Numbered from the stretch's first letter, positions 585-16,858 are shown. The stretch is DNA of 38,022 nucleotides from a virus (IMGVR_UViG_3300047275_000500:1-38022), one strand, 5' to 3'. Translations and numbers: made by a program. The notes: generated from the letters alone by a model not told the origin.

Positions 585-2897
585 ATGGCAACAAGAATGC
601 AACAGCGCAGAGGAACTGCAGCCCAATGGACGGGAGCAAACCCAACTCTAGCAGCAGGTGAAATCGGTTATGAAACCGATACAGGTAAGTTTAAAATTGG
701 TAATGGATCATCGGCATGGTCTGCACTTAATTATTATGTAGATGCAAATGCAATACTTGATGGCGCCCCAGGTGTACTTGATACACTTAATGAACTCGCT
801 GCCTCCCTTGGCGACGATCCCGCTTTCTTTACTACAGTGGCAGATAATCTCTCCGATCACACAACAGCCACTACAGATGTCCACGGTATCGCAAATACAG
901 CAGACCTTGCAACACAGCAGTTTGTAACAGATGCAGTATCTGGAGCAACGGTTGATCAGTCAGCACTTGCTGGTACAGGTATCGACTGGAACTCAGGTAC
1001 AGAACAGTTTGATATTGATAATACAGTAGTAACACTTACTGGAACACAAGAATTAACAAATAAGACACTAACTGGTGCAGATCTTGGATCTACTTCTGTA
1101 GCAGTCACTCAGGCAGGAACTGATAACACAACCAAACTTGCCACAACCGAATTCGTACAGGGTAGAGTTAATGCAGTTATTGCAGGTTCTCCAGAACTCC
1201 TAAATACATTAACTGAACTTTCTGCTGCAATCAATAATGATGAAAACTTTGCAGTAACTGTTTCTAATGAAATTGGAACTAAGGTTTCTAAGTCTGGGGA
1301 CACCATGACAGGTATATTAACACTTGTAGGTGCTCCAATAAATGGTGATGATGCTGCTACTAAAGAATATGTAGACAACACATCTACAGACGCTGCTAGT
1401 GGTGCAGTTAGCGCTCACAATTTACTAACAACAAATATTCATGGAATTGAAGATGTTGGTGAACTTGTTACAAATAATGATTTATCTGCACATACTTCAG
1501 CAACAACAAACGTACATGGTATTTATGATACATCACTACTTGCTCTAACATCAGATGTTACTGATCATGCTAATGATACTACAAATGTCCACGGTATTCT
1601 TGATACAGCAAATCTTGCATTGTTATCAGACGTTTCAGGACACGCAAATGACACTACTGCTGTACATGGAATTGCTGATACTGCTGAACTTGCTACTCAT
1701 ACAGATGTGAGCGATGCTGTAGAAGCACACCGTGCAGATACAACAAACGTACATGGAATTGCTGATACAGCAAATCTTGTTCTTACAGATGATGCTCGTT
1801 TATCAGATACAAGAACACCAACAGATGATAGCGTATCAACAGCAAAAATTGTTAACTCTGCTGTAACTGCAGATAAACTTGCTGGAGATTCTGTAACTAC
1901 CGCTAAGATTGAAGACGGTGCAGTAACATCTGCAAAGATTGCAAATGGAACAATTGTAGATGCTGATATTAGTGCAACTGCAGCAATTGCTCAGTCTAAG
2001 GTTGATGGACTTGGAGACGCACTTGATCTTAAGGCACCTCTAGCATCACCAACATTTACAGGTACTGTTTCAGGTATTACATCAACAATGGTTGGCTTGG
2101 GTAACGTAGACAATACATCAGATGCAAATAAGCCAGTATCAACTGCTACACAAACAGCACTTGATGCAAAGGCTTCTCTTGCAGGAGCAACATTTACAGG
2201 CTCAGTAGAAATTGACCAAAACCTAACAGTTGACGGAAACCTAACAGTAAATGGTACAACATTTAATGCATCATCAACATCTATTGTAATTGAAGATAAC
2301 ATGCTTCAACTTGCTCACCAAAATGCAGCAAACACAGTTGACCTTGGTATTGTGGTAGGTTACACAGATGGTGGAGCAAAGCACTCAGGTCTTGTAAGAG
2401 ACGTATCTGATGCTAAGTGGAAGTTGTTTAAGGGTGTTACAACAGAACCAACAACAACAGTTGATTTCACAGAGGGATCACTTGATGATCTTGCAGTAGC
2501 AGCACTTACAGCAACAACTGTAACTCCTTCATCTGGTGTAGTTTTCTCAGACGGCACACAGACAAAAGAAGGTGTAGCATCTCGCACACCAATTATTCAA
2601 AAGACAGCAGCATATACACTTTCTGCCCTAACTGAAAGAGACTCATTAATTGAAGTTTCTCATACAGGTGGTTCAGCAGTAACAATTACAATCCCTGCAA
2701 ACTCAGCAGTTGCTTATCCAGTAGGAACATCAATTGATATTCTTCGCACAAATACTGGTGGAGTTACAATCGCTGGAGCATCAGGAGTAACAGTAAATGC
2801 TACACCAGGATTAAACCTACGTGCCCAGTGGTCATCAGCAACTCTTTTCAAGAGAGCAACTGATACTTGGGTAGTCATGGGCGACTTGTCAGCATAA
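585..2897 (+). CDS. Tail fibre protein with an Mtd_N/hyaluronidase-like N-terminal anchor and His-containing repeats
   Basis: N-terminus RMQQRRGTAAQW..NPTLAAGEIGYETDTGKFKIGNG. Two LDTLNELAAxLxDDxxF-type fibre motifs, six HxxxTTxVHGI-type repeats, SVTTAKI repeats and a VGLGNVDNTSD motif. Confidence 0.8.
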   Translation: MATRMQQRRGTAAQWTGANPTLAAGEIGYETDTGKFKIGNGSSAWSALNYYVDANAILDGAPGVLDTLNELAASLGDDPAFFTTVADNLSDHTTATTDVHGIANTADLATQQFVTDAVSGATVDQSALAGTGIDWNSGTEQFDIDNTVVTLTGTQELTNKTLTGADLGSTSVAVTQAGTDNTTKLATTEFVQGRVNAVIAGSPELLNTLTELSAAINNDENFAVTVSNEIGTKVSKSGDTMTGILTLVGAPINGDDAATKEYVDNTSTDAASGAVSAHNLLTTNIHGIEDVGELVTNNDLSAHTSATTNVHGIYDTSLLALTSDVTDHANDTTNVHGILDTANLALLSDVSGHANDTTAVHGIADTAELATHTDVSDAVEAHRADTTNVHGIADTANLVLTDDARLSDTRTPTDDSVSTAKIVNSAVTADKLAGDSVTTAKIEDGAVTSAKIANGTIVDADISATAAIAQSKVDGLGDALDLKAPLASPTFTGTVSGITSTMVGLGNVDNTSDANKPVSTATQTALDAKASLAGATFTGSVEIDQNLTVDGNLTVNGTTFNASSTSIVIEDNMLQLAHQNAANTVDLGIVVGYTDGGAKHSGLVRDVSDAKWKLFKGVTTEPTTTVDFTEGSLDDLAVAALTATTVTPSSGVVFSDGTQTKEGVASRTPIIQKTAAYTLSALTERDSLIEVSHTGGSAVTITIPANSAVAYPVGTSIDILRTNTGGVTIAGASGVTVNATPGLNLRAQWSSATLFKRATDTWVVMGDLSA

Positions 2898-2928: not shown

Positions 2929-3951
2929 ATGGCAACAAGCAAAAAAAGAGGTATTAAGGCCTCAGCACAAGATAACTTTCTACAACCAGATCCTGTAACA
3001 GGCTTATCTGGTACAAATGTAGGAACAGGTCGAGCATTTGGTGACGGCGCTGTTAATCTATCTTGGACATTGTCTGCTACATCTCCTGCAGCAACTTCTT
3101 ATACTATTACAACTACTCCAGCAACATCAACTGTAGTAACTGGTAATGCAAACACATCCTATACATTTACTGGTCTTTCAGGTGGAACATCCTATACATT
3201 TACAGTTGTAGGAACAAACGCTGCTGGTACAGCCAACCCAACAACATCAGGTTCTGTTACTGTTACAACAGTACCAGGAACTCCAACTGGTGTAAGTGCT
3301 TCAGCAACATCAGCAAATACTAACACTATCTCTTGGACTGCTCCAGGAAATGGTGGTTCTGCAATTACATCTTATACAATTACTGGTTCAGACGGATCAA
3401 GTTATACTGGTATTTCTGCTGGTGCAACATCCTATGCTGCTAGTGATCCTGGAGTCTCTCCAGGCTCTCAGACTTATACGATTGTTGCTATCAATGCAAA
3501 CGGAACAGGTAATGGAGCAACTACTGCATCTGTTACTACTACCCCGCCGTTCTTCCCATTCTTCCCTCCATTCTTCCCGCCGTTTTTCCCATTCTTCCCT
3601 CCATTCTTCCCACCATTCTTCCCGTTCTTCCCACCATTCTTCCCACCATTCTTCCCATTCTTCCCGTTCTTCCCACCATTCTTCCCATTCTTCCCATTCT
3701 TCCCATTCTTCCCACCGTTCTTCCCATTCTTCCCATTCTTCCCGTTCTTCCCACCATTCTTCCCTTACTTCCCATTCTTCCCGTTCTTCCCACCATTCTT
3801 CCCTTACTTCCCATTCTTCCCGTTCTTCCCACCATTCTTCCCATTCTTCCCATTCTTCCCATTCTTCCCACCATCATTCGCATCAACTTGTAGTTGTGGG
3901 TATTGCTGGAGATGTAGCGTATGCTGCCCAGGAAGATCGTGCAGTTGTTAA
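2929..3951 (+). CDS. Two fibronectin type III-like domains followed by a (P)PFF repeat and a Cys-rich C-terminus; probable virion appendage protein
   Basis: AAGGAG RBS. FN3 signatures LSW..Y..LSGGTSYTFTVVGTNAAG and PGTPTGV..ISWTAP.NGGSAITSY. A 110-aa Pro/Phe tract follows, then CSCGYCWRCSVCCPGRSCSC. Confidence 0.8.
   Translation: MATSKKRGIKASAQDNFLQPDPVTGLSGTNVGTGRAFGDGAVNLSWTLSATSPAATSYTITTTPATSTVVTGNANTSYTFTGLSGGTSYTFTVVGTNAAGTANPTTSGSVTVTTVPGTPTGVSASATSANTNTISWTAPGNGGSAITSYTITGSDGSSYTGISAGATSYAASDPGVSPGSQTYTIVAINANGTGNGATTASVTTTPPFFPFFPPFFPPFFPFFPPFFPPFFPFFPPFFPPFFPFFPFFPPFFPFFPFFPFFPPFFPFFPFFPFFPPFFPYFPFFPFFPPFFPYFPFFPFFPPFFPFFPFFPFFPPSFASTCSCGYCWRCSVCCPGRSCSC
3544..3873 (+). repeat. Coding tandem repeat of CCN-TTC-TTC units (12x PPFF, 18x PFF, 2x PYF, terminal PP)
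   Basis: Read directly from the sequence. Variation falls mostly at Pro third-codon positions (CCA/CCG/CCT). Confidence 0.97.
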
Positions 3952-3953
3952 TG

Positions 3954-3987
3954 TTAGAGGGTACATTGTAAAAAATGTACCCACTAA
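3954..3987 (+). terminator. Hairpin after the PFF gene (GGGTACATT-gtaaaa-AATGTACCC); possible terminator or operator
   Basis: Perfect 9-bp inverted repeat, extendable with TTAG/CTAA. There is no clear U-tract. Confidence 0.5.
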
Positions 3988-3992
3988 ACATA

Positions 3993-4001
3993 TGCTATAA
4001 T
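3993..4001 (+). promoter_or_regulatory. Extended -10 promoter (TGCTATAAT) for the first half of the enzyme cluster
   Basis: Intergenic, upstream of the AAGGAG RBS and ATG at 4025. Confidence 0.65.
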
Positions 4002-4024
4002 AAAAGTAACAAAGGAGTCTTTTT

Positions 4025-4462
4025 ATGTACGGAGTATTAGTAAAAAATAACGATGCATATGATTTAATTGGAAAATTTAGTCATAGCAAACAAACAGTTA
4101 TGGATGCACTTAATGCAGCCAATGATTCTGGATTGCCTATTATAGGAATCGATGCAAGTGCACATAAGCAGCAAGCGCTTTATGGTGCAACTTGGAACGG
4201 ATCATCATTTTCTGGAGGCACAGCAGGACCAAATCTTATGAGTGCAACTCAGGAACAATTAGACTCTTTTAATTTATATGCATTTTTGTGTGACAATATT
4301 GTTGTCGCTAGAGTGGCGGTAGCAGTTGATACACCAAAGGCAGAAATGTATAGCGCAGCATTTACTGGTGAAGTAAATTTGATTAAAATTCCAGAAAGTC
4401 AAAACCTTATTATTGGATTATCTTATAATTGGGATGGAACTACATTTACTGAATTAGCATAA
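4025..4462 (+). CDS. Hypothetical protein with an internally duplicated module ending in W[ND]GxxF
   Basis: AAGGAG RBS. The two halves end in GATWNGSSF and SYNWDGTTF. Confidence 0.7.
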   Translation: MYGVLVKNNDAYDLIGKFSHSKQTVMDALNAANDSGLPIIGIDASAHKQQALYGATWNGSSFSGGTAGPNLMSATQEQLDSFNLYAFLCDNIVVARVAVAVDTPKAEMYSAAFTGEVNLIKIPESQNLIIGLSYNWDGTTFTELA

Positions 4463-4486
4463 TTTTATTATTGAAAGGTTAGTCAT

Positions 4487-5209
4487 ATGCAAATTTATGA
4501 TGAAAACCAGAATCCCTGGTTTACAAAAGATAGATCAGAAACTGCCTCAAATAGGTATCCAACAAAAACATTACCAAACGGTATAGTCGTAGAAAATCCT
4601 GGACTTGGATTGAATGTATACAGAAATGTATTTTCTAAAGATGATGCTGATAGATATATTCAAATTCTTGAATCTAATCTAGATGGCACAAAACGATATA
4701 AGTGGTCTGAGGCACAAGTAACAAACTCAACAACTCCTATTAAAAAAGCAAGAGATGCTGTAGATTTTAAATACAAGCAAGAAAATCTTGGTCCAAGAGA
4801 TGAGTTTAATGCAGAGTTAATAGATCTACATGAAGAGATTTATCAAAAATTAAAGTTTTGTGTAGATGATTATGCACACTACTGGGGTATTAATGTTATT
4901 TATTACGAAGCATTTAACTTTGTAAAGTATGAAGGCGAAGGAAAGCACTTTAATATTCATGCAGACCACGGCCCTGCATATAATGCTACAGTTTCAGCAG
5001 TTATTTACATTAATGATGATTACGAAGGTGGAGAGATTAAGTTTCCAAGATTAGATGGATACACTCTTACACCAAAAGTCGGAGATATTGCTGTATTCCC
5101 ATCTAACTATATTTATGAGCATGCGTCTCTTCCAATGAAGAGCGGTACAAAGTATTGTGTCGTAATCATGACTGATATTAATGAGTTAGGACATAAGGGT
5201 GGATACTGA
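4487..5209 (+). CDS. 2OG-Fe(II) oxygenase, prolyl 4-hydroxylase-like (#1)
   Basis: HAD...H facial triad, YINDDYEGGE motif, FPSN..YEH and GTKY. Confidence 0.9.
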   Translation: MQIYDENQNPWFTKDRSETASNRYPTKTLPNGIVVENPGLGLNVYRNVFSKDDADRYIQILESNLDGTKRYKWSEAQVTNSTTPIKKARDAVDFKYKQENLGPRDEFNAELIDLHEEIYQKLKFCVDDYAHYWGINVIYYEAFNFVKYEGEGKHFNIHADHGPAYNATVSAVIYINDDYEGGEIKFPRLDGYTLTPKVGDIAVFPSNYIYEHASLPMKSGTKYCVVIMTDINELGHKGGY

Positions 5210-5978
5210 GTATAACTCTATAGTCTTTAAATCTTACAGGCCATGGCTTACAAAAGAAAGCAAATCAGCACCATCCTCAACACAAAAAGAAATACCTCAA
5301 TGGTATAAAGATGCAGATAGGTTTGCAAAAAATCCCATTAATGGAGAATACTATAAGGCTCCAAAAGAGGTTTGTCCCTTTCCCAAAGAAGGAACAACAG
5401 ATGACTATGGGATGATTCCTACATGGAAGGCATGCCCTGCAATAATGGATGCCTTTATGACTGGGTATGTTTTTAAAACGCCTTGTGATTTAATATTTAC
5501 AAAAAATAATAATGGGTCTTTAGATCTTAAAATTGATAATCCAATGTATAGAGATTTTTGTACAGTTAGGCCACCAATGCCACAATTTGAACATCCAAAA
5601 GGCTACTACAAGAGTCATTTTGCATGGATGCCAGACTGGGGAATGAAACTACCAGATGGCTATAGTGCGCTATTTATGACACCAATGAATAGATTTGATT
5701 TGCCATTTATGAGCACAACTGGAATTGTTGACTCAGACAAGGTTGAGTTATTGGGTAGTTTTCCATTTTTTATTGTTGAGGGATGGGAAGGAACTATTCC
5801 TGCAGGAACCCCATATCTACAGGTTCTGCCATTCAAAAGAGAAAACTGGGAACATAGTATTGAGATTTCAGACTCATCAACTATATATGCTAAAATGGTA
5901 GATAACGCAAACTTTTATAGGCAGCCAGATGGCGGGGTATATAAAGACAAAGTTTGGACAAGAAGAGAGTATAAATAA
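5199..5978 (+). CDS. Conserved phage protein, DUF6065-like (distant)
   Basis: PQWYK, TWKACPAIMDAFMTGY..KTPCD, GIVDSD and IPAGTPYLQVLPFKRE. It shares its layout with the 6671 gene. The family was recalled, not searched. Confidence 0.55.
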   Translation: MDTEYNSIVFKSYRPWLTKESKSAPSSTQKEIPQWYKDADRFAKNPINGEYYKAPKEVCPFPKEGTTDDYGMIPTWKACPAIMDAFMTGYVFKTPCDLIFTKNNNGSLDLKIDNPMYRDFCTVRPPMPQFEHPKGYYKSHFAWMPDWGMKLPDGYSALFMTPMNRFDLPFMSTTGIVDSDKVELLGSFPFFIVEGWEGTIPAGTPYLQVLPFKRENWEHSIEISDSSTIYAKMVDNANFYRQPDGGVYKDKVWTRREYK

Positions 5979-5987
5979 GGAGTAGCA

Positions 5988-6671
5988 ATGACAACCTGGA
6001 CAAGTAAAGAAAGTCTTGGCAATGGAATTACAGTATATCGAAATGTAATTAAGCAAGAATTAGACATTATAAATAGGCTAGAAAGTACTCTTGGTAAGCC
6101 AGCCCCATGGGGAGAGATGTCTGAAGATGGAAAAAGATATCACTGGTTGCCAGCATATGTAGGGTATCAGCAATTAATGCCAGATTATAGAGATTGTTAC
6201 GATTTTAAATTTAAAAAGACAGATATTGAGTCAGATCCTAGCGAAGATTCTTTGTTTTTGCAAAAAATATGGCAAGACATTTATGATGTACAGGCTCCAG
6301 CAGTAGAAGATTATAGAAGAGATTATAATATTATGCCACTTAAATATTGGGAGGCTTTTAACTTTATTAAGTATGGTCCAGGACAGCACTTCAAAGAACA
6401 TCATGATCACGGCTTTTCTTATAATTGTACTGTATCTTTAGTGGCATATGTTAATGATGATTATGAAGGTGGCGAACTTTATTTTAGATTGCAAGATTTA
6501 AATATAAAGCCACAGGCTGGAGATCTTTATATATTCCCATCAAACTTTATGTATCCACATCAAGCAATGCCAGTACACTCTGGGACTAAGTATTCAATTG
6601 TAACAATGTTAGATTATAGCAAAAAGTATCATACACCAGATATGTATGATCCAAAGTGGGCAAATGAATAA
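5988..6671 (+). CDS. 2OG-Fe(II) oxygenase, prolyl 4-hydroxylase-like (#2)
   Basis: HHD...H, YVNDDYEGGELYF, FPSNFMYPH and GTKY, with an AAGGAG RBS. Confidence 0.9.
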   Translation: MTTWTSKESLGNGITVYRNVIKQELDIINRLESTLGKPAPWGEMSEDGKRYHWLPAYVGYQQLMPDYRDCYDFKFKKTDIESDPSEDSLFLQKIWQDIYDVQAPAVEDYRRDYNIMPLKYWEAFNFIKYGPGQHFKEHHDHGFSYNCTVSLVAYVNDDYEGGELYFRLQDLNIKPQAGDLYIFPSNFMYPHQAMPVHSGTKYSIVTMLDYSKKYHTPDMYDPKWANE

Positions 6672-7378
6672 TGTTTAATATTACTGTTGAAAAAATGCAT
6701 GGCTGTCTTTTTGATATTAAGCCAATGTCTATTAAAAGAGATTGGATGGATGCAACATCTGAAAATCATGCTTATAGATGTTTTCCAGTCACACAAGCAA
6801 ATGTAATTGGCTGGAGTTTATCTTGCACAGAAGATATTATATTTACCTGGGATGGGGTAAACGATCAAACAGACCAACATGTAAAGATTACTAATCCAGT
6901 TGGAGCATACTCTGGAAGAGGCCAGTCATCAATAAGTTTAAATACATCATTAGTTTTTAGAACAGATCCAGATGTTAGTATTTTGACTATTAATCCAGTT
7001 AATTACTTTAATGATGATTTTGAAACTCTGTCCAATTTAATCAGTACATCTTTCTATGACAATCCTTTGCCTCTAGCAATTAAAGCAAAAAAGGCAAATC
7101 AAGAAACAGTAATTAAGGCAGGAACTCCAATAGCAACAATCATTCCAATATCTTTGACTAATCTAAACAATAGTTCTATTAATATTGTTAATTATGTAGA
7201 TAACAATAATCAAAGACGTGATGCCAACATAGCGTATGGTGAAGCAGCACAAGTTGTTAACTCATCTGGTAAATGGACAGATTGGTATAGAGATGCTGTA
7301 AACGAAAAAAATGAATCTGTAGGATCACATGAGGTAAAGGCATTAAAACTTCATGTTACTAGTAATACGATTAAGTGA
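6671..7378 (+). CDS. DUF6065-like protein
   Basis: RDWMDAT..HAYRCFPVTQANVIGW matches the recalled DUF6065 N-terminal signature. It also has IKAGTPIATIIP. Confidence 0.65.
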   Translation: MFNITVEKMHGCLFDIKPMSIKRDWMDATSENHAYRCFPVTQANVIGWSLSCTEDIIFTWDGVNDQTDQHVKITNPVGAYSGRGQSSISLNTSLVFRTDPDVSILTINPVNYFNDDFETLSNLISTSFYDNPLPLAIKAKKANQETVIKAGTPIATIIPISLTNLNNSSINIVNYVDNNNQRRDANIAYGEAAQVVNSSGKWTDWYRDAVNEKNESVGSHEVKALKLHVTSNTIK

Positions 7379-7384
7379 TATAAT
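7376..7384 (+). promoter_or_regulatory. Extended -10 promoter (TGATATAAT), probably leaderless
   Basis: The -10 ends 6 nt before the ATG at 7391 and no SD is present. Confidence 0.6.
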
Positions 7385-7390
7385 ACTATT

Positions 7391-8152
7391 ATGGATATTA
7401 ATGACGCTATTACAGTTACCAGAAAACCATCCTTAACCCCATCTGGGTTTTTTGGATATGGGCCAGAAAATATTATAGAGTTAGAAAATTTTATGACCCA
7501 AGAAGAAGTTGACTTTTTAGATAAGGCAGCAAGAAGTATTACTATTTGGGATATTACTGAAAGCCATAAAAATGAAAATGGAACTGTAATTTATGATGCA
7601 GAATATTGGAAAGATAGGGTAGCCAGTGCACCATCTCTTAATCAAAATGATCCAAACATTGTTCCAGTAATTATTGGTTTGTTTAATAAACTTCAACCAG
7701 TTATTGAAAGTTTTTTTAATGTTAAGGTTCAGCCAACAGGCCAGACTATTGTTAAGTGGAATCCAGGACAGTTCCAAATGCCACACGCAGACAAAGAACT
7801 ACACTTTGGCCCTGATGCTGGGACACCTAATGATTTTCCAAACTATGATATAGCAAGTTTATTTTATATAAACGATGACTATGAAGGTGGGGAACTATAT
7901 TTTCCAAACCAAGGAATACAGTTTAAGCCTAAGCGTGGATCTGCATACTTTTTCCCAGGAGACATGAACTATGTTCATGGAGTTACTAAGATTAAAGATG
8001 GTGTGAGATACACATGTCCATTTTTTTGGGAAATTCTAGAGCATACTGGAGAAGTAAGGCCAGATTTTAACACAAAGTATCATAGAATTTTCCCTGACGA
8101 TAAAACAATAAGTGCATGGGATCCAGAAAATGGCATAAGGAGAAATTCATGA
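7391..8152 (+). CDS. 2OG-Fe(II) oxygenase, prolyl 4-hydroxylase-like (#3)
   Basis: HADKE, YINDDYEGGELYFP and HGV....GVRY. Confidence 0.9.
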   Translation: MDINDAITVTRKPSLTPSGFFGYGPENIIELENFMTQEEVDFLDKAARSITIWDITESHKNENGTVIYDAEYWKDRVASAPSLNQNDPNIVPVIIGLFNKLQPVIESFFNVKVQPTGQTIVKWNPGQFQMPHADKELHFGPDAGTPNDFPNYDIASLFYINDDYEGGELYFPNQGIQFKPKRGSAYFFPGDMNYVHGVTKIKDGVRYTCPFFWEILEHTGEVRPDFNTKYHRIFPDDKTISAWDPENGIRRNS

Positions 8153-8910
8153 ATCTAAACAACAAAGAAAGATTAACTAAAGACATAGTTCTTTATAAAA
8201 ATTTTATTGATGCAGATACTGCAGCCAAACTAATTAAGGTTTTAGACAAGCATGCAGAAAGTGGAAAGATTTCATGGACACCAATTTCATTTTATGAGTC
8301 GTATTCATCTGTCTTGCCTCAAGACGATGACGAAGATGTTTTATTAGAGGGCTTGCCAGCAGATATTTTTTCACAAATAAAAGAAGGTATTATTAAGGCT
8401 GTTGCTAGTGTTCATGATATTGATGAAAAAATAGTTTGTCAAATTGGATACCATACACAAAAGTGGGAGCCAGGAGCATATGCAAGAATTCATTCTGACA
8501 ATACAGATGAAAAAGGAAACTCTGGAGCATTCACAAGAAGTCGATATGCATCATTTTTATATCTAAATGATGATTTTGATGGTGGACTATTACAGTTTCC
8601 AGATCAAGAAATAAGCATTAAGCCAGAGGTAGGGATGCTTGCTGCCTTCGATGGCGGATTTAATAATATGCACGAAGTAACACTTATCACTAAGGGTGTT
8701 AGGTATACTATAGGATCATTCTGGGATGATAGAGAAGAAGATGCCTATCCACAAGAACTAAGAGATGCATGGGCAAAAGAGATGGAAGAGACAAGGGCAT
8801 TTCAAGCAAAAGAAAAGGCTGAGTGGCAAGAGTTACTAAAAGAAGGTTATAAAATAGACGAAGATGGAAATAAATATCGCATAGAGGATGGTGTTAGGCC
8901 ACATGATTGA
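8149..8910 (+). CDS. 2OG-Fe(II) oxygenase, prolyl 4-hydroxylase-like (#4)
   Basis: HSD, YLNDDFDGGLLQFP and HEV....GVRY. The start was moved to ATG 8149 (AAGGAG RBS, ATGA overlap with the upstream stop). Confidence 0.88.
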   Translation: MNLNNKERLTKDIVLYKNFIDADTAAKLIKVLDKHAESGKISWTPISFYESYSSVLPQDDDEDVLLEGLPADIFSQIKEGIIKAVASVHDIDEKIVCQIGYHTQKWEPGAYARIHSDNTDEKGNSGAFTRSRYASFLYLNDDFDGGLLQFPDQEISIKPEVGMLAAFDGGFNNMHEVTLITKGVRYTIGSFWDDREEDAYPQELRDAWAKEMEETRAFQAKEKAEWQELLKEGYKIDEDGNKYRIEDGVRPHD

Positions 8911-9562
8911 TACACTAAAACAAAAACTAAAAGATAGTAATCTAGAGTTTGAAGAAATAACAAATGAACTCTTGTGGGTTAAAAACTTTTTAACAAAAGA
9001 AGAATTAGACTTTGTTTGGAGTACTATAAATGGAGCAACTCAGGCAGACTGGGAAGTAGAGTATATGGGAAATCTAAAAAACTTTTGCTTAGAAAAGTTT
9101 GGAAGAGATGATGTAGACAATCTTGTTGCAGAAGGTAAGTTTGAAATTACACAAAATTGGGTAGATAAGAATTTAAACATTAAGCACCATCCAGAACAAC
9201 AGGTTTTTTATAAAAGACTAACCGATATTATTGAGCCATCATTCCCAGGCTTAGAACTAAGCGGTCTTGCAACCATTCAAAGAATGCAAAAGGGTGTAGA
9301 GTTAAAATCACATACAGATCAGCATACAGATCCATCAATACACTATGCAACAATTTTGTATATTAATGATGATTATGTAGATGGGGAGTTGTTTTTCCCT
9401 AATAAAGATATATCTTTAAGACCACAGCCAGGAGATTTACTGTTTTTCCCAGGCAATGAAGAGTACGAGCATGGAGTCAAGCATGTTGGCGAGGGACCAA
9501 TAAGGTATGTAATTGTCGGCTTTGTAAAAGAAAAAGGACATTACGAAAGGAATAAATACTAA
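8903..9562 (+). CDS. 2OG-Fe(II) oxygenase, prolyl 4-hydroxylase-like (#5)
   Basis: HTD, YINDDYVDGELFFP and HGV.....PIRY. The start is 8903 or 8888. Confidence 0.88.
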   Translation: MIDTLKQKLKDSNLEFEEITNELLWVKNFLTKEELDFVWSTINGATQADWEVEYMGNLKNFCLEKFGRDDVDNLVAEGKFEITQNWVDKNLNIKHHPEQQVFYKRLTDIIEPSFPGLELSGLATIQRMQKGVELKSHTDQHTDPSIHYATILYINDDYVDGELFFPNKDISLRPQPGDLLFFPGNEEYEHGVKHVGEGPIRYVIVGFVKEKGHYERNKY

Positions 9563-10293
9563 TGAATAAAGAAATATTAGATCCAAAAGTATATTACTAC
9601 ACAGATGCAATAGATAACTTTGATGTGTTTTTAAAAACTCTAAATGAACTAGATGGCATGGAGTTTTATGATGACACTAAGGTTAACCTTTGGCAAAAAT
9701 GGACATCTTCAAATGATAAAGATTTTATTTATGGAGAAACAAAAACCTTTGACGTGGATGCTATCTCAAAGTCAGGCGGCATTGTTGGAGAAAAAAGCAA
9801 ATATATTTATGATGCAGTAATGACAACTCTATACAATGTATGTAAAGATTATGCAGAAGCCATGGGAGATTTTGATGAACCACGACTATTCCCAACTTTT
9901 AATATCAAAAAGTATTATACTGGTATGGCCATGGGAGCACATTTTGATCAACTAGATGGCGACAAAACATTGAGATATTCTCTTGTAATGTATTTAAATG
10001 ATGACTGTGAGGGTGGAGAAATATCTTTTCAGTTAAAGGATTACGATGGTGGATGGAACAGTAAAGATGGTTGGGTACATGGTGCTCCAGCAGTAGACTT
10101 AGATTACGATCTTGCTGTTGCAAACAATACAATAGATTTTGGGATTAAGCCAAAAGCAAACAGCGTTATTATTTTCCCAGCAGAGGCCCCATATTTCCAT
10201 ACAGCACATACTGTAAAGTCTGGAGTAAAGTATATGGTTCCAGGTCACTGGATTCATAACAACATGCAACTAAACAATCACCAAGGCATGTAG
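9562..10293 (+). CDS. 2OG-Fe(II) oxygenase, prolyl 4-hydroxylase-like (#6)
   Basis: HFD, YLNDDCEGGEISF and HTAH.VKSGVKY, translationally coupled by TAATG. Confidence 0.88.
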   Translation: MNKEILDPKVYYYTDAIDNFDVFLKTLNELDGMEFYDDTKVNLWQKWTSSNDKDFIYGETKTFDVDAISKSGGIVGEKSKYIYDAVMTTLYNVCKDYAEAMGDFDEPRLFPTFNIKKYYTGMAMGAHFDQLDGDKTLRYSLVMYLNDDCEGGEISFQLKDYDGGWNSKDGWVHGAPAVDLDYDLAVANNTIDFGIKPKANSVIIFPAEAPYFHTAHTVKSGVKYMVPGHWIHNNMQLNNHQGM

Positions 10294-10961
10294 TGAAAAC
10301 AGCCATAGTCACTGGTGCAAGTAAAGGCGTTGGGTATGCCACAGTAAAACTTTTATCTGAAAATGGTTATAAGGTTATTGCTGTTTCTCGTAACCTAGAA
10401 AAAGTTTCTGAATTGATTTCTGATAATGTAGAGGTATATGCGTTAGATATAACTAATCAAAATCAGATAAAGGCATTTTATGAAAAATATAAAGATATAT
10501 CTTTAGATCTTTTGGTTAACAATGCTGGTGGAGGGTCTGGACCAACCAACATTATTAATGAAACTATGGATAATTTTAGAATAGCATACGAGATTAATGT
10601 TTCTGGACCAATGTATCTTTCTCAACTTTTTGTGCCATGTATGAAAAAGTCAAAGTCCCCAACAATTATTTTTATTAGTTCTTTGGGTGGAAAGATCCCA
10701 TATCGTGGAGGCGGTAACTATACAAATGCTAAAAGAGGACAAATGGGATTAATAGATACTATGAGAATGGAGTTCCCAGAATATGGAATTAAAATTACAG
10801 AGATTTGTCCAGGAACAATTGATACTCAGATTGAAAAAAGAGATATTGCTTTAACAGCAGAAGATCTTGCTAATTCTATTTTGTGGGTTTCAGAGTTGCC
10901 ACCACACTTTAATATTAATCATATTGAAATGAATCATATTTCAAGTAGTAAATTTTCATAA
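10293..10961 (+). CDS. Short-chain dehydrogenase/reductase (classical SDR, likely NADP-preferring)
   Basis: TGASKGVG Rossmann motif, NNAG, catalytic S...YTNAK (YxxxK) and PG. The GTG start overlaps the upstream TAG. Confidence 0.9.
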   Translation: MKTAIVTGASKGVGYATVKLLSENGYKVIAVSRNLEKVSELISDNVEVYALDITNQNQIKAFYEKYKDISLDLLVNNAGGGSGPTNIINETMDNFRIAYEINVSGPMYLSQLFVPCMKKSKSPTIIFISSLGGKIPYRGGGNYTNAKRGQMGLIDTMRMEFPEYGIKITEICPGTIDTQIEKRDIALTAEDLANSILWVSELPPHFNINHIEMNHISSSKFS

Positions 10962-10983: not shown

Positions 10984-11016
10984 AGAGTTTTATAAAAGTA
11001 AAAACTCTGGTATACT
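10984..11016 (+). promoter_or_regulatory. Inverted repeat (AGAGTTTT...AAAACTCT) abutting an extended -10 (TGGTATACT) upstream of the RNR gene
   Basis: 8-bp inverted repeat at 10984-10991 and 11001-11008, with the -10 motif at 11008-11016. Confidence 0.55.
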
Positions 11017-11048
11017 TGGGTAATTACAGTTTCTTAAGGAGAATAACA

Positions 11049-13099: not shown

Positions 13100-16000
13100 A
13101 TGTCTAGCCCATCAAATCTATACGCAGAGAAAATATATGCAGAGCATCCACAATTTTTGTGGGCACTGGATGATCAGGCTGACTATATCTCTATAATCTC
13201 AGATGCACAAAGAGCAACATCTACCTGGGAAATTGATAATGGAACTTCCCAGAGCACAGAGGAATTAACTAGCGCACCTTTTCCAGATAGTGTAATTAAC
13301 AAAATAACTCCATCATCTGTTTTCGGTGGAACCTTTTCAGTTACATTAGTTAGTCCAGAAATTGTTAGTGTTGCAGATTTAAATGAAACATTAAAAACAT
13401 TTGCGGTAGGTTCATATTTTTATACACTTAGTCCGTTTGTCCTTAATGTTGAAATTGGATACAGATACTACGACGGAGCACAAGACGAATATATTGATGT
13501 TTTAAAAAGTTATGATGCCTCTTTGACAGATAGATGGTACTTTGTATCAGAAACATTTAGTCCAGAAGAAACAGATCTTCCATTAAGATTAGTAATAAAA
13601 ATAAACTATATTGGAGAAGAAACTGTATCTCCATCAGATTGTATTATGTACATAAATGGAATCACTTTTGGTCAGTGGTGTGAAGAGTTTCAGTCACAAT
13701 CTCTCGGCTCAGAATCTATTGATCTTCCATCAACTATTGGGTTAGACACTTGTAAAGTTGTTGAGGCAAAAGCATACGGGTTAGCAGAAAACTATGGTTA
13801 TTATTTTGTAAATCAAAACGCACTTATGGCAAAAAATTTTGGTGTTCCATTAGTCTTTGGATCTAAAAATGTAACCAAACTATATGAAAATCCAAACAAG
13901 CCTTCGCTGATCATTCCATCAGGAGGAATGATGAGTGAGTCTGGAAAATATCAAAAGTTTTCTTTAGAGTTTTGGATAAGAACAAGAAATTCTTCACAAG
14001 AATTAAAAAGAATAGTTGGACCAATAGGGTCGAACGATGGAATATATATTAATGGACCTTTTATTGTATTAAAAATAAACGAGAGTTACTCTTCGTACTA
14101 TGTAGGACATTGGGAAAGACCAATGCTTATTCATTGGAGATATTCTCCAGAGGTTTCTTCTTTACTTTTAAATGGTGAGGAAATTATTTCAATTCAGTTA
14201 GACGCAGATTCCTTATACCTTCCAGATTCTTTTAGTATGGATGGTAAAAGTAAAGACTGGATGGGATTTTATGCACATGAAGAGATACAGCCAATAGAGA
14301 TAGATTGTGTTGCGTTATATAATTATTTAGTTCCATTGCTTGTTGCAAAGCGCAGATTTGTTTATGGACAAGGTGTGCAATATCCAGAAAACTTAAACGC
14401 ATCCTATGGCGGAGAATCTGTAGTATTTGATTATTCTTTTGCTGATTATACAAAAAACTATAACTACCCAGATTTAGGGTCCTGGTCACAAGCGTCACTA
14501 GACAATATTATTGTTGAGGATAATTATTTAACTGTTCCAAGTTATGATCCTCCTACAATTATAATTGATAGTACAATCAAAACCCAAAGAGAATTATTGT
14601 TAAGTTGTGCAGTTAGCCAAAATGAAAGTGATTTATTTTTAAACTTAAGACCAGACACATCTTGGGACTCTATTAACTCATACTTATATTTTGATGACTT
14701 AGAGGCTTCTGACCTATCAATGTATGGACTGTATGGCGTATTTAAAAAGAATACAAGTTATACTGGAGAGGCTCAAGTTTTAATTAGAATTGAAGACAGT
14801 AGAAATCAAAATTATTTTTCTATAGAGTCTGTAGGAAATGATGTAAGGTATATTTTTAAATATCAAACAGATGAAGAGCAGGTTCTTTATGAGGCACTAT
14901 CTATTCCAAACGACACAGTTTTTTCTGTAGGTCTTGAAATCAATAAATTTAAAAATCACTTTGGCAACAACATCTTGTCATTTTTTAATAACTATTCATC
15001 ACTCAATATGTATGTCGGAGGAACAAAAGAATTTGCAAAAACTTTTACAGGAAATATTTATAAAATAGGAATATGTTCTGAAAAAAATATTAACGATATT
15101 GGGACATTGTTTAATGAAATAGGAGTTCCAAAAGATTATGAAAATATTTTTAATCTATACAGTCCCTATGTTGAGTATGACGGAGGAGATGCGGATCAAA
15201 ATTTTTGGAATTATTATATAGGACAGACACAATTAAATGAAGATCAATATGATGAAACTCCAGAAGTATTAGAAAATTTCTCTTTTTCTCCATCATCGTT
15301 TGTTAATTTTACTTTACAAAATCATAAACCAAGCATAGGCATAGTTCCAAAGTCATACTTTGGTCTTTTTTATTTAGATGTTGACATTAAGGGGTCATGG
15401 AAAGACTATATTCCTCTTGCATATTTTGCTCAATTTGTTACTGATGAAAAGGGCGACTCTCGCCTAGGCTTAGACTTTATTCAGTTTAATGTTAACTATC
15501 CAGCGCCTACAAAATTCAAGGTATCTGAAGTTGTAGACCCAGACGGATGGAGTTATTCAGAACTACAGTCACAATACTCATTTCCATTACAAAGATCTTA
15601 TGATTCTTTAGATAATTATTTATATACTGGATATCAGGATTATCAAGATTTGGCAGAGCGATCTATTAAGTCATATTATTACGATACATCTGATGCAATC
15701 TTAAGAACATTTATTACTTTTGAATATTTAGAAACTGGCGTCAATGCTTCAGATGGATTTTTTGTTAATCAAGAAAGCGTACCAAAGAATGGAGTAATTA
15801 GCCCTGGATCAGATTGGATTAATACAAAGTATGAGGTTGTTGATAATGTTGTAATTTATCCACCAAAAGATGTTGCATTTGATAAGTTGGCGATAAGAGT
15901 TCATTTTGAATTTGATGTAGATGGAATCCACAACAAACCAATTAAGGTTAAAACCTTACAGTTGGCATCACAGGCCTATAACTACAATGGCGGAAACAGT

Positions 16001-16858
16001 ATCGGCACAAGGTTTGGAGCAAGCGTTTATCCATATGTCAATACAGGATATTATTATAATTACAAATACCAAAATCCAATAACAGTTTATAAGGGTTCTT
16101 CTCCATATTTATATTTAACTAGATATTCTGGACTAGAAGTTCGTGGCGATTATGACCCATTAATCAATCGTGGTGTTGCTATACAGGTTAATCCAAATAA
16201 GGCTGAAAATTATGAAGTTATGGCTATGCAATCTTTAATTAGATTTAACTATGACTTCTTCCCGTATGGCTCTACTCAGATTATGCAAATAAATGCTAAG
16301 TCAAAAACTATTAAGTTCTACATGGTGGCAGATCACCCAAGTGGTAAAAGAGCAAAGATCTATGCAATAGACGCAAACACTGGCATGCTATACGATGGTA
16401 TTTCTTATTATATTAATGGAAGTGTTGTCAAAGAGCCAGTTATAAATGTCGGGGAATGGACAATGTTAGGAATTGGATTCCCAACAGTACTAAACTTTAA
16501 ATCATACACTGGAAATATTATGATTAATGGCCCTATTATTTTTGATAGTTTGTCCTATTATCAGACAACAAGTTTACAGGAAATTCAGCAGGTAGAGAAA
16601 AGAAGATGGGCTAGAGTTAAGTTTGGACTAGATGGATTCCTAGACTGGGAGTATTGGACAGACTTCTATGTTTGGAAGGGTGTGCTTGTGGCATCTTCAT
16701 CAAGTTATTATGGTGTTAATCCAGCAGACTTGTATAAAGCATACACAGGAACTAATAAAATTATTATTGACGATACACGGCCACTTCGGTTTAAAGATTA
16801 CAAATATACAGCATTTCAAGATTTGGTTTGGCAAGCACAGATATCAGATCCAGTATAG
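13100..16858 (+). CDS. Large beta-rich protein, probably a virion component with LamG/concanavalin-A-like domain(s)
   Basis: 1252-aa ORF. The N-terminal HPxxLWALDD and internal FSLEFWI..., IDCVALYNY motifs resemble phage LamG-like proteins. Confidence 0.55.
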   Translation: MSSPSNLYAEKIYAEHPQFLWALDDQADYISIISDAQRATSTWEIDNGTSQSTEELTSAPFPDSVINKITPSSVFGGTFSVTLVSPEIVSVADLNETLKTFAVGSYFYTLSPFVLNVEIGYRYYDGAQDEYIDVLKSYDASLTDRWYFVSETFSPEETDLPLRLVIKINYIGEETVSPSDCIMYINGITFGQWCEEFQSQSLGSESIDLPSTIGLDTCKVVEAKAYGLAENYGYYFVNQNALMAKNFGVPLVFGSKNVTKLYENPNKPSLIIPSGGMMSESGKYQKFSLEFWIRTRNSSQELKRIVGPIGSNDGIYINGPFIVLKINESYSSYYVGHWERPMLIHWRYSPEVSSLLLNGEEIISIQLDADSLYLPDSFSMDGKSKDWMGFYAHEEIQPIEIDCVALYNYLVPLLVAKRRFVYGQGVQYPENLNASYGGESVVFDYSFADYTKNYNYPDLGSWSQASLDNIIVEDNYLTVPSYDPPTIIIDSTIKTQRELLLSCAVSQNESDLFLNLRPDTSWDSINSYLYFDDLEASDLSMYGLYGVFKKNTSYTGEAQVLIRIEDSRNQNYFSIESVGNDVRYIFKYQTDEEQVLYEALSIPNDTVFSVGLEINKFKNHFGNNILSFFNNYSSLNMYVGGTKEFAKTFTGNIYKIGICSEKNINDIGTLFNEIGVPKDYENIFNLYSPYVEYDGGDADQNFWNYYIGQTQLNEDQYDETPEVLENFSFSPSSFVNFTLQNHKPSIGIVPKSYFGLFYLDVDIKGSWKDYIPLAYFAQFVTDEKGDSRLGLDFIQFNVNYPAPTKFKVSEVVDPDGWSYSELQSQYSFPLQRSYDSLDNYLYTGYQDYQDLAERSIKSYYYDTSDAILRTFITFEYLETGVNASDGFFVNQESVPKNGVISPGSDWINTKYEVVDNVVIYPPKDVAFDKLAIRVHFEFDVDGIHNKPIKVKTLQLASQAYNYNGGNSIGTRFGASVYPYVNTGYYYNYKYQNPITVYKGSSPYLYLTRYSGLEVRGDYDPLINRGVAIQVNPNKAENYEVMAMQSLIRFNYDFFPYGSTQIMQINAKSKTIKFYMVADHPSGKRAKIYAIDANTGMLYDGISYYINGSVVKEPVINVGEWTMLGIGFPTVLNFKSYTGNIMINGPIIFDSLSYYQTTSLQEIQQVEKRRWARVKFGLDGFLDWEYWTDFYVWKGVLVASSSSYYGVNPADLYKAYTGTNKIIIDDTRPLRFKDYKYTAFQDLVWQAQISDPV

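What the first reader, a model, noticed from the sequence alone, without database searches (positions are those of the whole stretch)
2929..10961. Candidate new system: Pro-Phe-Phe repeat protein coupled to a battery of six prolyl-hydroxylase-like oxygenases, two DUF6065-like proteins and an SDR
Seen: a gene with a 110-aa tract of 46 Pro, 62 Phe and 2 Tyr is followed on the same strand by nine tightly packed genes. Six have intact HxD...H 2OG-Fe(II) motifs of the P4H type. Established: such enzymes hydroxylate peptidyl-Pro, and phage 2OG oxygenase clusters are known but their substrates mostly are not. Inference: the repeat is the cognate substrate, and the cluster is a phage-encoded post-translational modification pathway (Pro hydroxylation, perhaps Phe/Tyr oxidation, then SDR redox steps). 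The product could be a decorated virion appendage or RiPP-like peptides. The layout of a repetitive precursor plus tailoring enzymes resembles a biosynthetic gene cluster placed in a tail-fibre module.
Basis: partly seen in the sequence, partly recalled or inferred. Interest (0 to 1): 0.92.

Follow-up and report, generated by a model that had tools for sequence, protein, structure and literature searches.

The report
Repeat-matched phage oxygenases tailoring fibre tips
An uncultured freshwater phage encodes a fibre-region protein with 110 residues of only proline, phenylalanine and tyrosine, followed by six iron-oxygenase genes, and related phages that swap this repeat for another also swap the enzyme family, so the repeat is the likely but chemically untested target of these otherwise unexplained phage enzymes.

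Summary
Observation confirmed: residues 206-315 are 62 Phe, 46 Pro, 2 Tyr; six intact 2OG-Fe(II) oxygenases, two dUTPase-fold DUF6065-type genes and an SDR follow. A tenth gene (4025-4462) was missed; it tracks the Cys-rich tip, not the repeat. Only four genes form the conserved core (4487, 5199, 5988, 6671); the SDR is in 14 of 33 loci. Best evidence: enzyme family follows repeat type. At this locus 33 Pro-Phe-Phe genes sit with the core and 46 Phe-x-Phe genes with a different oxygenase family, none mixed (four independent switches, p=0.125). A third, Pro-free x-Asn-Thr repeat has its own oxygenase clade. So a substrate link is likely (about 0.6), but 'prolyl' is not shown: the core enzymes have a P4H/PHD fold, yet lack the conserved Tyr140 and Arg161 equivalents, and kin follow Pro-free repeats. 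Phe may be a target. Against: physical linkage, similar enzymes elsewhere without repeats, Syn9's array without a Pro repeat, no chemistry. RiPP and SDR steps are weakly supported. I found no paper on it; Iyer 2010 described tandem phage arrays. This scan noted the same system before on other DNA.

The parts
585..2897 (+). Tail-fibre-like protein (770 aa) directly upstream; context, not part of the cassette
   Evidence: Mtd_N; PHROG minor tail / tail fibre hits; 31 bp gap to the repeat gene
2929..3951 (+). FN3-FN3-(P)PFF repeat-Cys tip protein (340 aa), inferred fibre partner and inferred substrate
   Evidence: fn3 x2; 69 relatives; a relative ends in Peptidase_S74, others in Hint
3544..3873 (+). 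110-codon Pro/Phe/Tyr tract (62 F, 46 P, 2 Y)
3874..3951 (+). Exchangeable Cys-rich tip (25 aa, 8 Cys); replaced in relatives by Hint, S74-like or a 3-residue end
3993..4001 (+). Extended -10-like element (TGnTATAAT) in front of the cassette; consensus match only
   Evidence: such a motif lies within 120 bp after 67 of 123 repeat genes, against 23 of 94 before them
4025..4462 (+).
   Evidence: no Pfam/PHROG/NCBIfam hit; follows 36 of 55 Cys tips and 0 of 19 Hint ends; only sub-threshold Atlas leads to Caudo_TAP; alignment
4487..5209 (+). oxyA, core 2OG-Fe(II) oxygenase (H158-D160-H212, Lys)
   Evidence: in 31 of 33 bounded loci; nearest PDB sequence Bacillus anthracis P4H, E 1.3e-4
5199..5978 (+). 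dufA, DUF6065-like protein with conserved Cys77 and a GIVDSD motif
   Evidence: in 32 of 33 loci; homologues also in Syn9 gp43 and halovirus HF1 without a Pro repeat
5988..6671 (+). oxyB, core 2OG-Fe(II) oxygenase (H138-D140-H191, K201), P4H/PHD-type fold
   Evidence: in 32 of 33 loci
6671..7378 (+). dufB, DUF6065; predicted dUTPase fold with invariant R23-W25-M26 and H33-A34-Y35-x-C37-x-P39
   Evidence: in 32 of 33 loci
7391..8152 (+). oxyC, accessory 2OG-Fe(II) oxygenase; extended -10-like element at 7376-7384, 6 bp before the ATG
   Evidence: 29 of 33 loci
8149..8910 (+). oxyD, accessory 2OG-Fe(II) oxygenase (longest ORF from 8116)
   Evidence: 27 of 33 loci
8903..9562 (+). oxyE, accessory 2OG-Fe(II) oxygenase (longest ORF from 8888)
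   Evidence: 27 of 33 loci
9562..10293 (+). oxyF, accessory 2OG-Fe(II) oxygenase
   Evidence: 26 of 33 loci
10293..10961 (+). Classical SDR (TGxxxGxG, YxxxK), accessory
   Evidence: 14 of 33 loci

Best explanation
The 2929 gene encodes an FN3-FN3 protein with a 110-residue Pro-Phe-Phe tract that is likely a virion fibre-tip component, and the two core iron/2-oxoglutarate oxygenases behind it (4487, 5988), likely helped by the two dUTPase-fold DUF6065 proteins, would hydroxylate that tract after translation. Shown: the tract, the intact metal and 2OG ligands, the folds of the models, the four-gene core and the matching of enzyme family to repeat type across phages. Inferred: virion location (gene follows the tail-fibre gene; relatives end in S74 or Hint self-cleaving caps that would leave the tract at the tip); enzyme-substrate relation; residue hit. 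Given that the tract is modified, I put Pro at about 60% and Phe (for example beta-hydroxylation) at about 35%; both may be hit by different paralogues. The new hydroxyls would make a greasy polymer soluble or adhesive and give anchor points to the variable accessory enzymes (oxyC-F, SDR; in relatives methyltransferase-like, radical SAM, Asp/Asn beta-hydroxylase, glutathione peroxidase-like genes). The 145-aa gene serves the Cys tip, not the repeat. The role of DUF6065 (scaffold or Cys redox helper) is a guess.
For: Forward: oxyB+dufB in 59 of 69 FN3 loci; the 10 misses are 4 truncated, 1 frameshifted and 5 with a different repeat. Loci found by the repeat DNA alone: 42 of 62 repeat genes with at least 3.5 kb held have an oxyA/B-clade gene and DUF6065 downstream. 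Reverse: 29 of 29 dufB loci with over 1.5 kb upstream have the tract (close relatives only). The repeat + oxyA/B-clade + DUF6065 trio recurs in a lineage whose capsid is unrelated by blastp (L124, L133). Matched switch: 70 of 71 loci of a second oxygenase family ('HK', invariant H136, H186, R197; 2OG-FeII_Oxy_5-like by Atlas features) lie behind the same FN3 gene with Phe-x-Phe repeats, 0 of 71 with oxyB/dufB. 79 non-redundant loci: 33 PFF+oxyB, 46 FxF+HK, none mixed; 5 changes on a neighbour-gene tree, 4 independent pairs, all concordant. Whole records: 0 of 15 PFF records hold HK (control 3 of 3); 14 FxF records, 8 near-complete, hold no oxyB orthologue (best E 6e-34 against 1e-103 to 1e-116). 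L061 is PFF-lineage in FN3 (72%), RNR (97%) and best Hint hits, yet has both the FxF repeat and HK. Third pair: 12 of 12 x-Asn-Thr repeat proteins ending in Hint or a Cys tip are followed by an Oxy_3 gene, forming their own clade. oxyB model matches PHD/P4H enzymes best (Z 17-19.4) and keeps the Glu127-equivalent (E122, invariant) and the collagen-type Lys.
Against: No chemistry. Repeat and cassette are contiguous, so one crossover pair swaps both; 4 pairs give p=0.125 and loci with neither enzyme were dropped before the count. The L061 Hint is only 41-45% like PFF-type Hints and could come from an unsampled lineage. 20 of 62 repeat genes lack the pair within 8 kb: for at least 6 the cassette lies elsewhere on the same contig, but 4 of 16 records searched had no oxygenase match at all (13-31% complete) and G003 (50%) only a distant one. 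FxF genomes carry 2-6 other Oxy_3 genes, and six of them a cassette of two dufA-like genes, a weak glycosyltransferase, two oxygenases and (in four) a carbamoyltransferase-like gene with no repeat gene beside it. Syn9's array follows fibre genes and has a dufA homologue but no Pro-rich repeat. None of the six enzymes has the P4H-conserved Tyr three residues before the first His (F, F, Q, A, L, M) and oxyA/B have Ala/Cys at the Arg161 position; a non-P4H oxygenase (3dkq) scores Z 17.7 too. In the viral precedent no hydroxyproline was found in purified PBCV-1 virions (PMC7019647).
Confidence: 0.6

Rival explanations
1. The cassette is a moron island in the variable region behind the fibre genes. 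It acts on something else (host surface glycans or lipids, other virion proteins, small metabolites) and travels with the repeat because it is adjacent. The tract is an unmodified hydrophobic stalk or tip.
For: Own extended -10-like elements at 3993 and 7376; Syn9 array behind fibre genes without Pro repeat; repeat-free dufA/oxygenase cassette in FxF genomes; Iyer et al. proposed secondary-metabolite synthesis for such arrays (PMC2938197); contiguity explains co-swapping.
Against: Tips and small genes between repeat and cassette vary freely, yet repeat class and enzyme class never mix in 79 loci; exclusion holds genome-wide; three repeat types have three enzyme groups; the trio recurs in an unrelated lineage.
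Confidence: 0.22
2. The cluster is RiPP-like: the Cys-rich tip or short PFF units are cut out and tailored into a released peptide.
For: Hypervariable Cys-rich ends, Hint ends, and a radical SAM/SPASM gene in two relatives; weak hit of oxyD to the RiPP maturase model YhhC (E 0.0013, far under cut-off).
Against: The core stays when the tip is absent (3-residue ends) or is a Hint; no protease or transporter in the cassette; the N-terminus is FN3, not a leader; S74 in a relative points to a trimeric fibre.
Confidence: 0.07
3. The enzymes modify nucleotides or DNA (dUTPase-fold proteins plus oxygenases next to a ribonucleotide reductase).
For: dufB folds like dUTPase; dufA keeps a GIVDSD motif; RNR follows at 11016; weak Tet_JBP hit of oxyC (E 9e-4, under cut-off); a carbamoyltransferase sits in the second cassette and phage carbamoyltransferases are linked to cytosine modification (PMC8670742, listing only).
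Against: oxyB matches peptide hydroxylases, not AlkB or TET, in the listed rows; invariant DUF6065 residues are not the dUTPase motifs as I recall them; many loci lack RNR at this place; DNA chemistry would not track the repeat type.
Confidence: 0.06
4. The oxygenases act on the tip domain (Cys peptide or Hint) or on the FN3/fibre shaft rather than on the repeat.
For: All three module types share the tip/Hint architecture.
Against: The same Hint subtypes occur with both PFF and FxF modules while the enzymes differ, and the core persists without any tip.
Confidence: 0.05

Closest known systems
Tandem dioxygenase array of Synechococcus phage Syn9 (gp41-gp54; Iyer et al. 2010, PMC2938197, passages read)
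   Same: Tandem divergent 2OG oxygenases with a Cys-bearing dUTPase-fold protein (gp43 hits my DUF6065-type profile, E 4.8e-14), directly behind tail-fibre genes. The same paper proposes collagen-like or tail-collar proteins as substrates of linked dioxygenases in bacterial operons.
   Different: Syn9 has Trp halogenases and a JmjC gene, other oxygenase families and Gly-rich, not Pro-Phe, fibre proteins; the authors proposed metabolite synthesis for it. No repeat-enzyme matching was described in the passages read.
Chlorovirus PBCV-1 prolyl 4-hydroxylase (vCPH, PDB 5c5t; review PMC7019647, passages read)
   Same: Viral enzyme of the same fold (Z 17.1) that hydroxylates Pro peptides in vitro.
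   Different: A single enzyme in a eukaryotic virus; its role is unknown and no Hyp was detected in virions; no linked battery, no DUF6065; the Tyr140-type residue is changed in the phage enzymes.
Collagen/algal P4H and HIF-PHD/PPHD enzymes (Cr-P4H 3gze, PHD2, Pseudomonas P4H 4iw3, B. anthracis P4H)
   Same: DSBH fold, HxD...H triad, Lys (oxyA, B, F) or Arg (oxyC, D, E) for 2OG, Glu127 equivalent in oxyA/B.
   Different: 12-21% identity; conserved Tyr140/Tyr310 is Phe or absent; Arg161 is Cys/Ala in the core pair; substrate would be a Gly-free Pro-Phe polymer.
Virion glycosylation in mycobacteriophages Che8/Rita (as cited in PMC11256854, passages read; Freeman 2023 itself not read)
   Same: Actinophage-encoded enzymes that post-translationally decorate the phage's own virion proteins.
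   Different: Glycosyltransferases on capsid proteins; no oxygenases, no dedicated repeat.
Self-processing fibre ends: Peptidase_S74 chaperones and Hint/BIL domains
   Same: Relatives cap the repeat with S74 (L105) or Hint (L008) domains.
   Different: This window has neither; it ends in a Cys-rich peptide with a cognate small gene.

Membership tests
Fe(II)/2OG dioxygenase superfamily | HxD...H triad and basic 2OG ligand in a DSBH fold | tested here: met
   All six above Pfam cut-off, motifs listed; oxyB model pLDDT 92.9
Peptidyl prolyl 4-hydroxylases (C-P4H, Cr-P4H, PHD, vCPH) | P4H/PHD-type fold as nearest structural neighbours | tested here: met
   oxyB only: Z 17-19.4; 3dkq, a putative oxygenase, ties at 17.7; the other five were not modelled
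Peptidyl prolyl 4-hydroxylases (C-P4H, Cr-P4H, PHD, vCPH) | Conserved Tyr three residues before the first His, contacting the target Pro (Tyr140/Tyr310/Tyr427) | tested here: not met
   F, F, Q, A, L, M in oxyA-F; F135 invariant in 58 oxyB rows; role from PMC9676403
Peptidyl prolyl 4-hydroxylases (C-P4H, Cr-P4H, PHD, vCPH) | Glu127-Arg161 substrate-positioning pair | tested here: inconclusive
   Glu kept in oxyA/B, Arg replaced by Ala/Cys by sequence alignment to B. anthracis P4H; oxyD/F have an Arg one position off; importance from a computational study (PMC5684110)
Peptidyl prolyl 4-hydroxylases (C-P4H, Cr-P4H, PHD, vCPH) | Forms 4-hydroxyproline in a peptide | not testable with these tools
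   needs an assay
DUF6065 (PF19541) | Score above the Pfam cut-off | tested here: met
   6671-7378: 101 bits. 5199-5978 has no Pfam hit and is a distant homologue only
Trimeric dUTPases | dUTPase beta fold | tested here: met
   dufB model Z about 10, 115-122 aligned residues, rmsd 2.7-5.2; Foldseek E 4e-5
Trimeric dUTPases | Five catalytic motifs (RSG, GxIDxDYxG, RGxGGFGSTG; motifs recalled) | tested here: not met
   dufB invariants are R23, W25, M26, H33, A34, Y35, C37, P39, N44; no sequence match in PDB at E<=1; dufA keeps GIVDSD only
RiPP biosynthetic gene cluster | Short precursor with leader and core, plus protease/exporter | tested here: not met
   340-aa FN3 protein; no protease or transporter among the ten genes
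Syn9-type tandem dioxygenase array | Tandem divergent 2OG oxygenases with a Cys-bearing dUTPase-fold gene | tested here: met
Syn9-type tandem dioxygenase array | Trp halogenase and JmjC genes in the array | tested here: not met
   none among the ten genes; a halogenase lies elsewhere in 2 of 5 related records
Virion tail-fibre accessory protein | Present in purified particles | not testable with these tools
   position and domain context only
Tail fibre assembly chaperone (Caudo_TAP-type), for 4025-4462 | Profile or fold match | tested here: inconclusive
   Atlas feature score 0.79 and TM 0.30, both under the bar

The most novel reading that the evidence does not exclude
Aquatic phages run a modular 'repeat code' for post-translational chemistry: an exchangeable low-complexity tract (Pro-Phe-Phe, Phe-x-Phe, Asn-Phe-Tyr, x-Asn-Thr) on a fibre-tip protein is written by its own cognate oxygenase family, including hydroxylation of peptidyl Phe/Tyr by 2OG enzymes and a Cys-dependent dUTPase-fold co-catalyst, producing a chemically decorated adhesive polymer. 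This would assign a substrate to a large share of the 'orphan' phage 2OG oxygenases usually filed as auxiliary metabolic genes.
Probability: 0.3. Interest if true: 0.9.

Novelty: new variant of a known kind. Interest (0 to 1): 0.72.

Why it matters
2OG-Fe(II) oxygenases are among the commonest unexplained genes of aquatic phages. This locus names a concrete substrate that can be synthesised, a four-gene core and natural negative controls (other repeat types with other enzymes), so the question becomes a one-bench experiment. If true, phages tailor their own fibre tips chemically, these genes are structural tailoring enzymes rather than host-metabolism genes, and the set offers new peptide hydroxylases for Pro- and possibly Phe-rich polymers, plus a first function for DUF6065.

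Tried and rejected
Co-folding of the 145-aa protein with the last 40 residues of the repeat protein gave no answer (score 0.01, controls not run); it is no evidence either way. Enzyme-peptide co-folding was not run (one job; a pass would be expected from likeness to solved P4H-peptide complexes). No cultured phage matches the FN3 part or dufB; dufA matches only distant haloviruses and one cyanophage, oxyB distant cyanophage and Methylophilales phage genes. My guess that the HK family is Syn9 gp47-like failed (no hit); HK has no Pfam, NCBIfam, PHROG or PDB match and no profile match to oxyB, so its oxygenase label rests on motif and Atlas features. My first label 'T4-like' for the second lineage was wrong: its capsid is Phage_capsid_4. 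The sigma-70 and terminator scan was at chance level. In 185,579 prokaryote genomes the PFF pattern gave 6 matches, all in MAG contigs; 4 are the same phage-type locus and 2 unrelated. No RNA holder was listed; one RNA contig touched only the repeat. Tip and 145-aa protein co-vary (partial rank correlation 0.57, 25 loci), but rows are related and adjacent, so I give it little weight. Paper searches found nothing on this system: DUF6065 0 papers; P4H+bacteriophage+proline-rich+virion 0; phage+tail fiber+PTM+hydroxyproline 1 unrelated; two searches listed nothing on it by title or abstract start. The library lacks most subscription papers, and I did not open the supplement of Iyer 2010, which may list these neighbourhoods.

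Full report
Setting. The window is a 38-kb fragment of a siphophage: portal, prohead protease, HK97-type capsid and tape measure lie downstream. The capsid's best cultured matches are Streptomyces phages at 39%, and freshwater metagenome runs hold the stretch. An actinobacterial host is inferred, not shown. Relatives with complete records are 108-120 kb.

Observation. The ORF 2929-3951 has two FN3 domains, then 110 residues of only F (62), P (46) and Y (2) at window 3544-3873, then 25 residues with 8 Cys. Pro codons vary while the protein pattern holds (same in relatives).

Co-occurrence. Of 69 loci found with the FN3 part, 63 have a PFF tract on that gene, 5 a different repeat and 1 is cut off; 59 hold oxyB and dufB, and the 10 misses are truncated (4), frameshifted (1) or have the other repeat (5). 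Searching by the repeat DNA alone gave 125 listed stretches of an estimated 1100; among the 79 loci with long flanks, 8 had no ORF with the motif, 11 repeat genes had under 3.5 kb held, and 42 of the remaining 62 had an oxyA/B-clade gene and DUF6065 downstream. Several misses are second repeat genes of contigs that carry the cassette elsewhere (L078/L231, L079/L233, L132/L133, and G005, G013, G014); others are fragments; 4 of 16 records had no oxygenase match. In reverse, 29 of 29 dufB loci with over 1.5 kb upstream have the tract (70 new loci of the best 80 of 565, all close relatives). In 33 non-redundant loci bounded by the FN3 gene and RNR or the next large gene, dufA, dufB and oxyB are in 32, oxyA 31, oxyC 29, oxyD 27, oxyE 27, oxyF 26, the 145-aa gene 20 and the SDR 14; three loci have only the four core genes. 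A second lineage with an unrelated capsid puts the repeat on a different N-terminus and still follows it with an oxyA/B-clade gene and DUF6065.

The enzyme follows the repeat type. The five FN3 loci with a Pro-poor repeat led to a second system. At the same genomic place, FN3 genes ending in Phe-x-Phe repeats (FGFSPF, FSVFGF, and in L324 a Pro-free NFY repeat) are followed by 1-4 paralogues of another family: 70 of 71 loci have the FN3 gene upstream and none has oxyB or dufB. This family has invariant His, His and Arg and resembles 2OG-FeII_Oxy_5 by Atlas features (0.96, 203 shared; 79% of that cluster), with no library hit. Among L001-L263 it occurs only in the five odd loci. In 79 non-redundant loci that had both marker genes and one of the enzymes, 33 were PFF+oxyB and 46 FxF+HK, none mixed; loci with neither enzyme were dropped and not tallied. 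A quick tree of two upstream genes needs 5 changes (4 forced by starred branches) and gives 4 independent pairs, all concordant, p=0.125. The exclusion holds for whole records. L061 is the most telling case: FN3 72% and RNR 97% like PFF-type L036/L048, its nine best Hint matches are PFF-type (41-45%), yet both repeat and enzyme are of the other type. A third type turned up in FxF genomes: PASTA or fibre proteins with (I/V)NT repeats. Of 80 loci examined from 103, 36 had no ORF, 25 non-redundant ORFs were unrelated low-complexity proteins without oxygenase, and 12, those ending in Hint or a Cys tip (judged by eye), were each followed by an Oxy_3 gene; one gene from each forms a starred clade apart from the oxyA/B clade. 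Two of the 12 also have Thr-Pro-Val repeats.

What the enzymes look like. The oxyB model (pLDDT 92.9) matches PHD, algal, Pseudomonas and chlorovirus prolyl hydroxylases best (Z 17-19.4), with a putative non-P4H oxygenase tied at 17.7. By sequence the nearest structure is B. anthracis P4H. oxyB keeps the Glu127 equivalent and the Lys, but has Phe for the conserved Tyr140 and Cys for Arg161; oxyC-F depart further (roles from passages of PMC9676403 and PMC5684110). Together with Oxy_3 genes behind Pro-free repeats, this means 'works like a peptide hydroxylase' is well supported and 'is a prolyl 4-hydroxylase' is not. Phe or Tyr is the one feature shared by the PFF and FxF repeats. dufB is predicted to have a dUTPase fold with an invariant HAYxCxP patch, agreeing with the 'conserved cysteine, dUTPase fold' protein noted in the Syn9 array (PMC2938197, passages).

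The tip. Behind the repeat, relatives have a Cys-rich peptide, a Hint, an S74-like end or almost nothing. In 123 non-redundant repeat genes (regex classes; a few Hints fell into 'other'), 55 Cys tips were never followed directly by an oxygenase or DUF6065 gene (36 by the 145-aa family, the rest by other mostly small genes), whereas 13 of 19 Hint ends and 14 of 25 short ends were. So 4025-4462 belongs to the tip. S74 and Hint caps are self-cleaving (established knowledge, recalled), which would leave the tract at the end of a fibre.

Against. Everything is comparative. Contiguity can swap repeat and cassette together. FxF genomes hold further P4H-like genes and a repeat-free cassette with two dufA-like genes. 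Syn9 has the array behind fibre genes but no Pro-rich repeat, and halovirus HF1 has a lone dufA homologue near its tail genes. Extended -10-like elements at 3993 and 7376 suggest separate transcription. The viral precedent, PBCV-1 P4H, has no detected Hyp in virions (PMC7019647, passages).

Verdict. A real, widespread phage module. The best reading is post-translational hydroxylation of the repeat by a four-gene core (0.6), with Pro more likely than Phe; an unrelated substrate 0.22; RiPP 0.07; nucleotide chemistry 0.06; tip or shaft as target 0.05. Tandem phage arrays and a viral P4H are known; the repeat-matched modules were not found in my paper searches (limits under Tried and rejected). 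Earlier notes of this scan describe the same system, the type switch and the xNT type on other DNA; they are unchecked AI notes and I do not count them as support. They gave me the lead to Iyer 2010; I reached the switch and the xNT type before seeing those notes. New variant of a known kind; interest 0.72.

Noticed in passing
L280:3728-7266 and L285-L355: Second module at the same locus: FN3 + Phe-x-Phe repeats followed by 1-4 paralogues of an unnamed His-x-His...His...Arg oxygenase-like family with no Pfam, NCBIfam, PHROG or PDB match.
   Followed up: yes
L324:5251-6938: Two tandem FN3 genes ending in Pro-free NFY/YNYS repeats, followed by a single HK-family enzyme: the cleanest test case for a Phe/Tyr (or Asn) target.
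   Followed up: partly
L362:4049-6692; L370:1920-4822: PASTA-type proteins with (INT)n or (VNT/QNT/VDT)n repeats, Cys blocks and Hint or Cys tip, followed by Oxy_3 genes of their own clade.
   Followed up: yes
L363, L365, L367, L369, L371, L374: Conserved cassette without a repeat gene: 224-aa unknown, two dufA-like genes, weak GlcNAc-transferase-like gene, two oxygenases, and in four a carbamoyltransferase-like gene.
   Followed up: partly
L105:1082-1762 (-); L119, L136, L144: PFF tract fused to a Peptidase_S74 chaperone; in three loci the S74-like part appears split into a short tail and a following 93-104-aa gene.
   Followed up: partly
L024, L034, L036, L041, L044, L048, L054-L056, L061-L065: Hint-like caps that start with Ser and end in V[FY]D instead of HN, beside canonical Cys...HN Hints (L008).
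   Followed up: no
L052:7910-8155 and 15 other loci: Small CxxC protein with a weak DUF6171 match, usually behind Cys-tipped repeat genes.
   Followed up: partly
L002/L007 (radical SAM-SPASM), L008 (Asp/Asn beta-hydroxylase, methyltransferase-like), L049/L133 (glutathione peroxidase-like), L005 (sulfotransferase-like by eye): Variable accessory enzymes inserted in the cassette of relatives.
   Followed up: partly
L033:9603-10469: A further fibre-region protein with PPVV/PPVT repeats in a PFF-type phage.
   Followed up: no
window 7376-7393 and 11008-11018: Extended -10-like elements only a few bases before the start codons of oxyC and of the class II ribonucleotide reductase ORF, suggesting leaderless transcripts.
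   Followed up: partly
window 13100-16858: 1252-aa conserved protein with no Pfam or PHROG family that bounds the locus in both module types.
   Followed up: no
G017:C1:55712-57112; G019:C1:70171-71547: Tryptophan-halogenase family gene elsewhere in 2 of 5 complete related genomes, as in the Syn9 array.
   Followed up: no
L356, L359, L360, L361: The same phage locus lies in contigs of bacterial MAGs (Luteolibacter, Bacteroidetes, Acidimicrobiaceae), probably mis-binned.
   Followed up: partly
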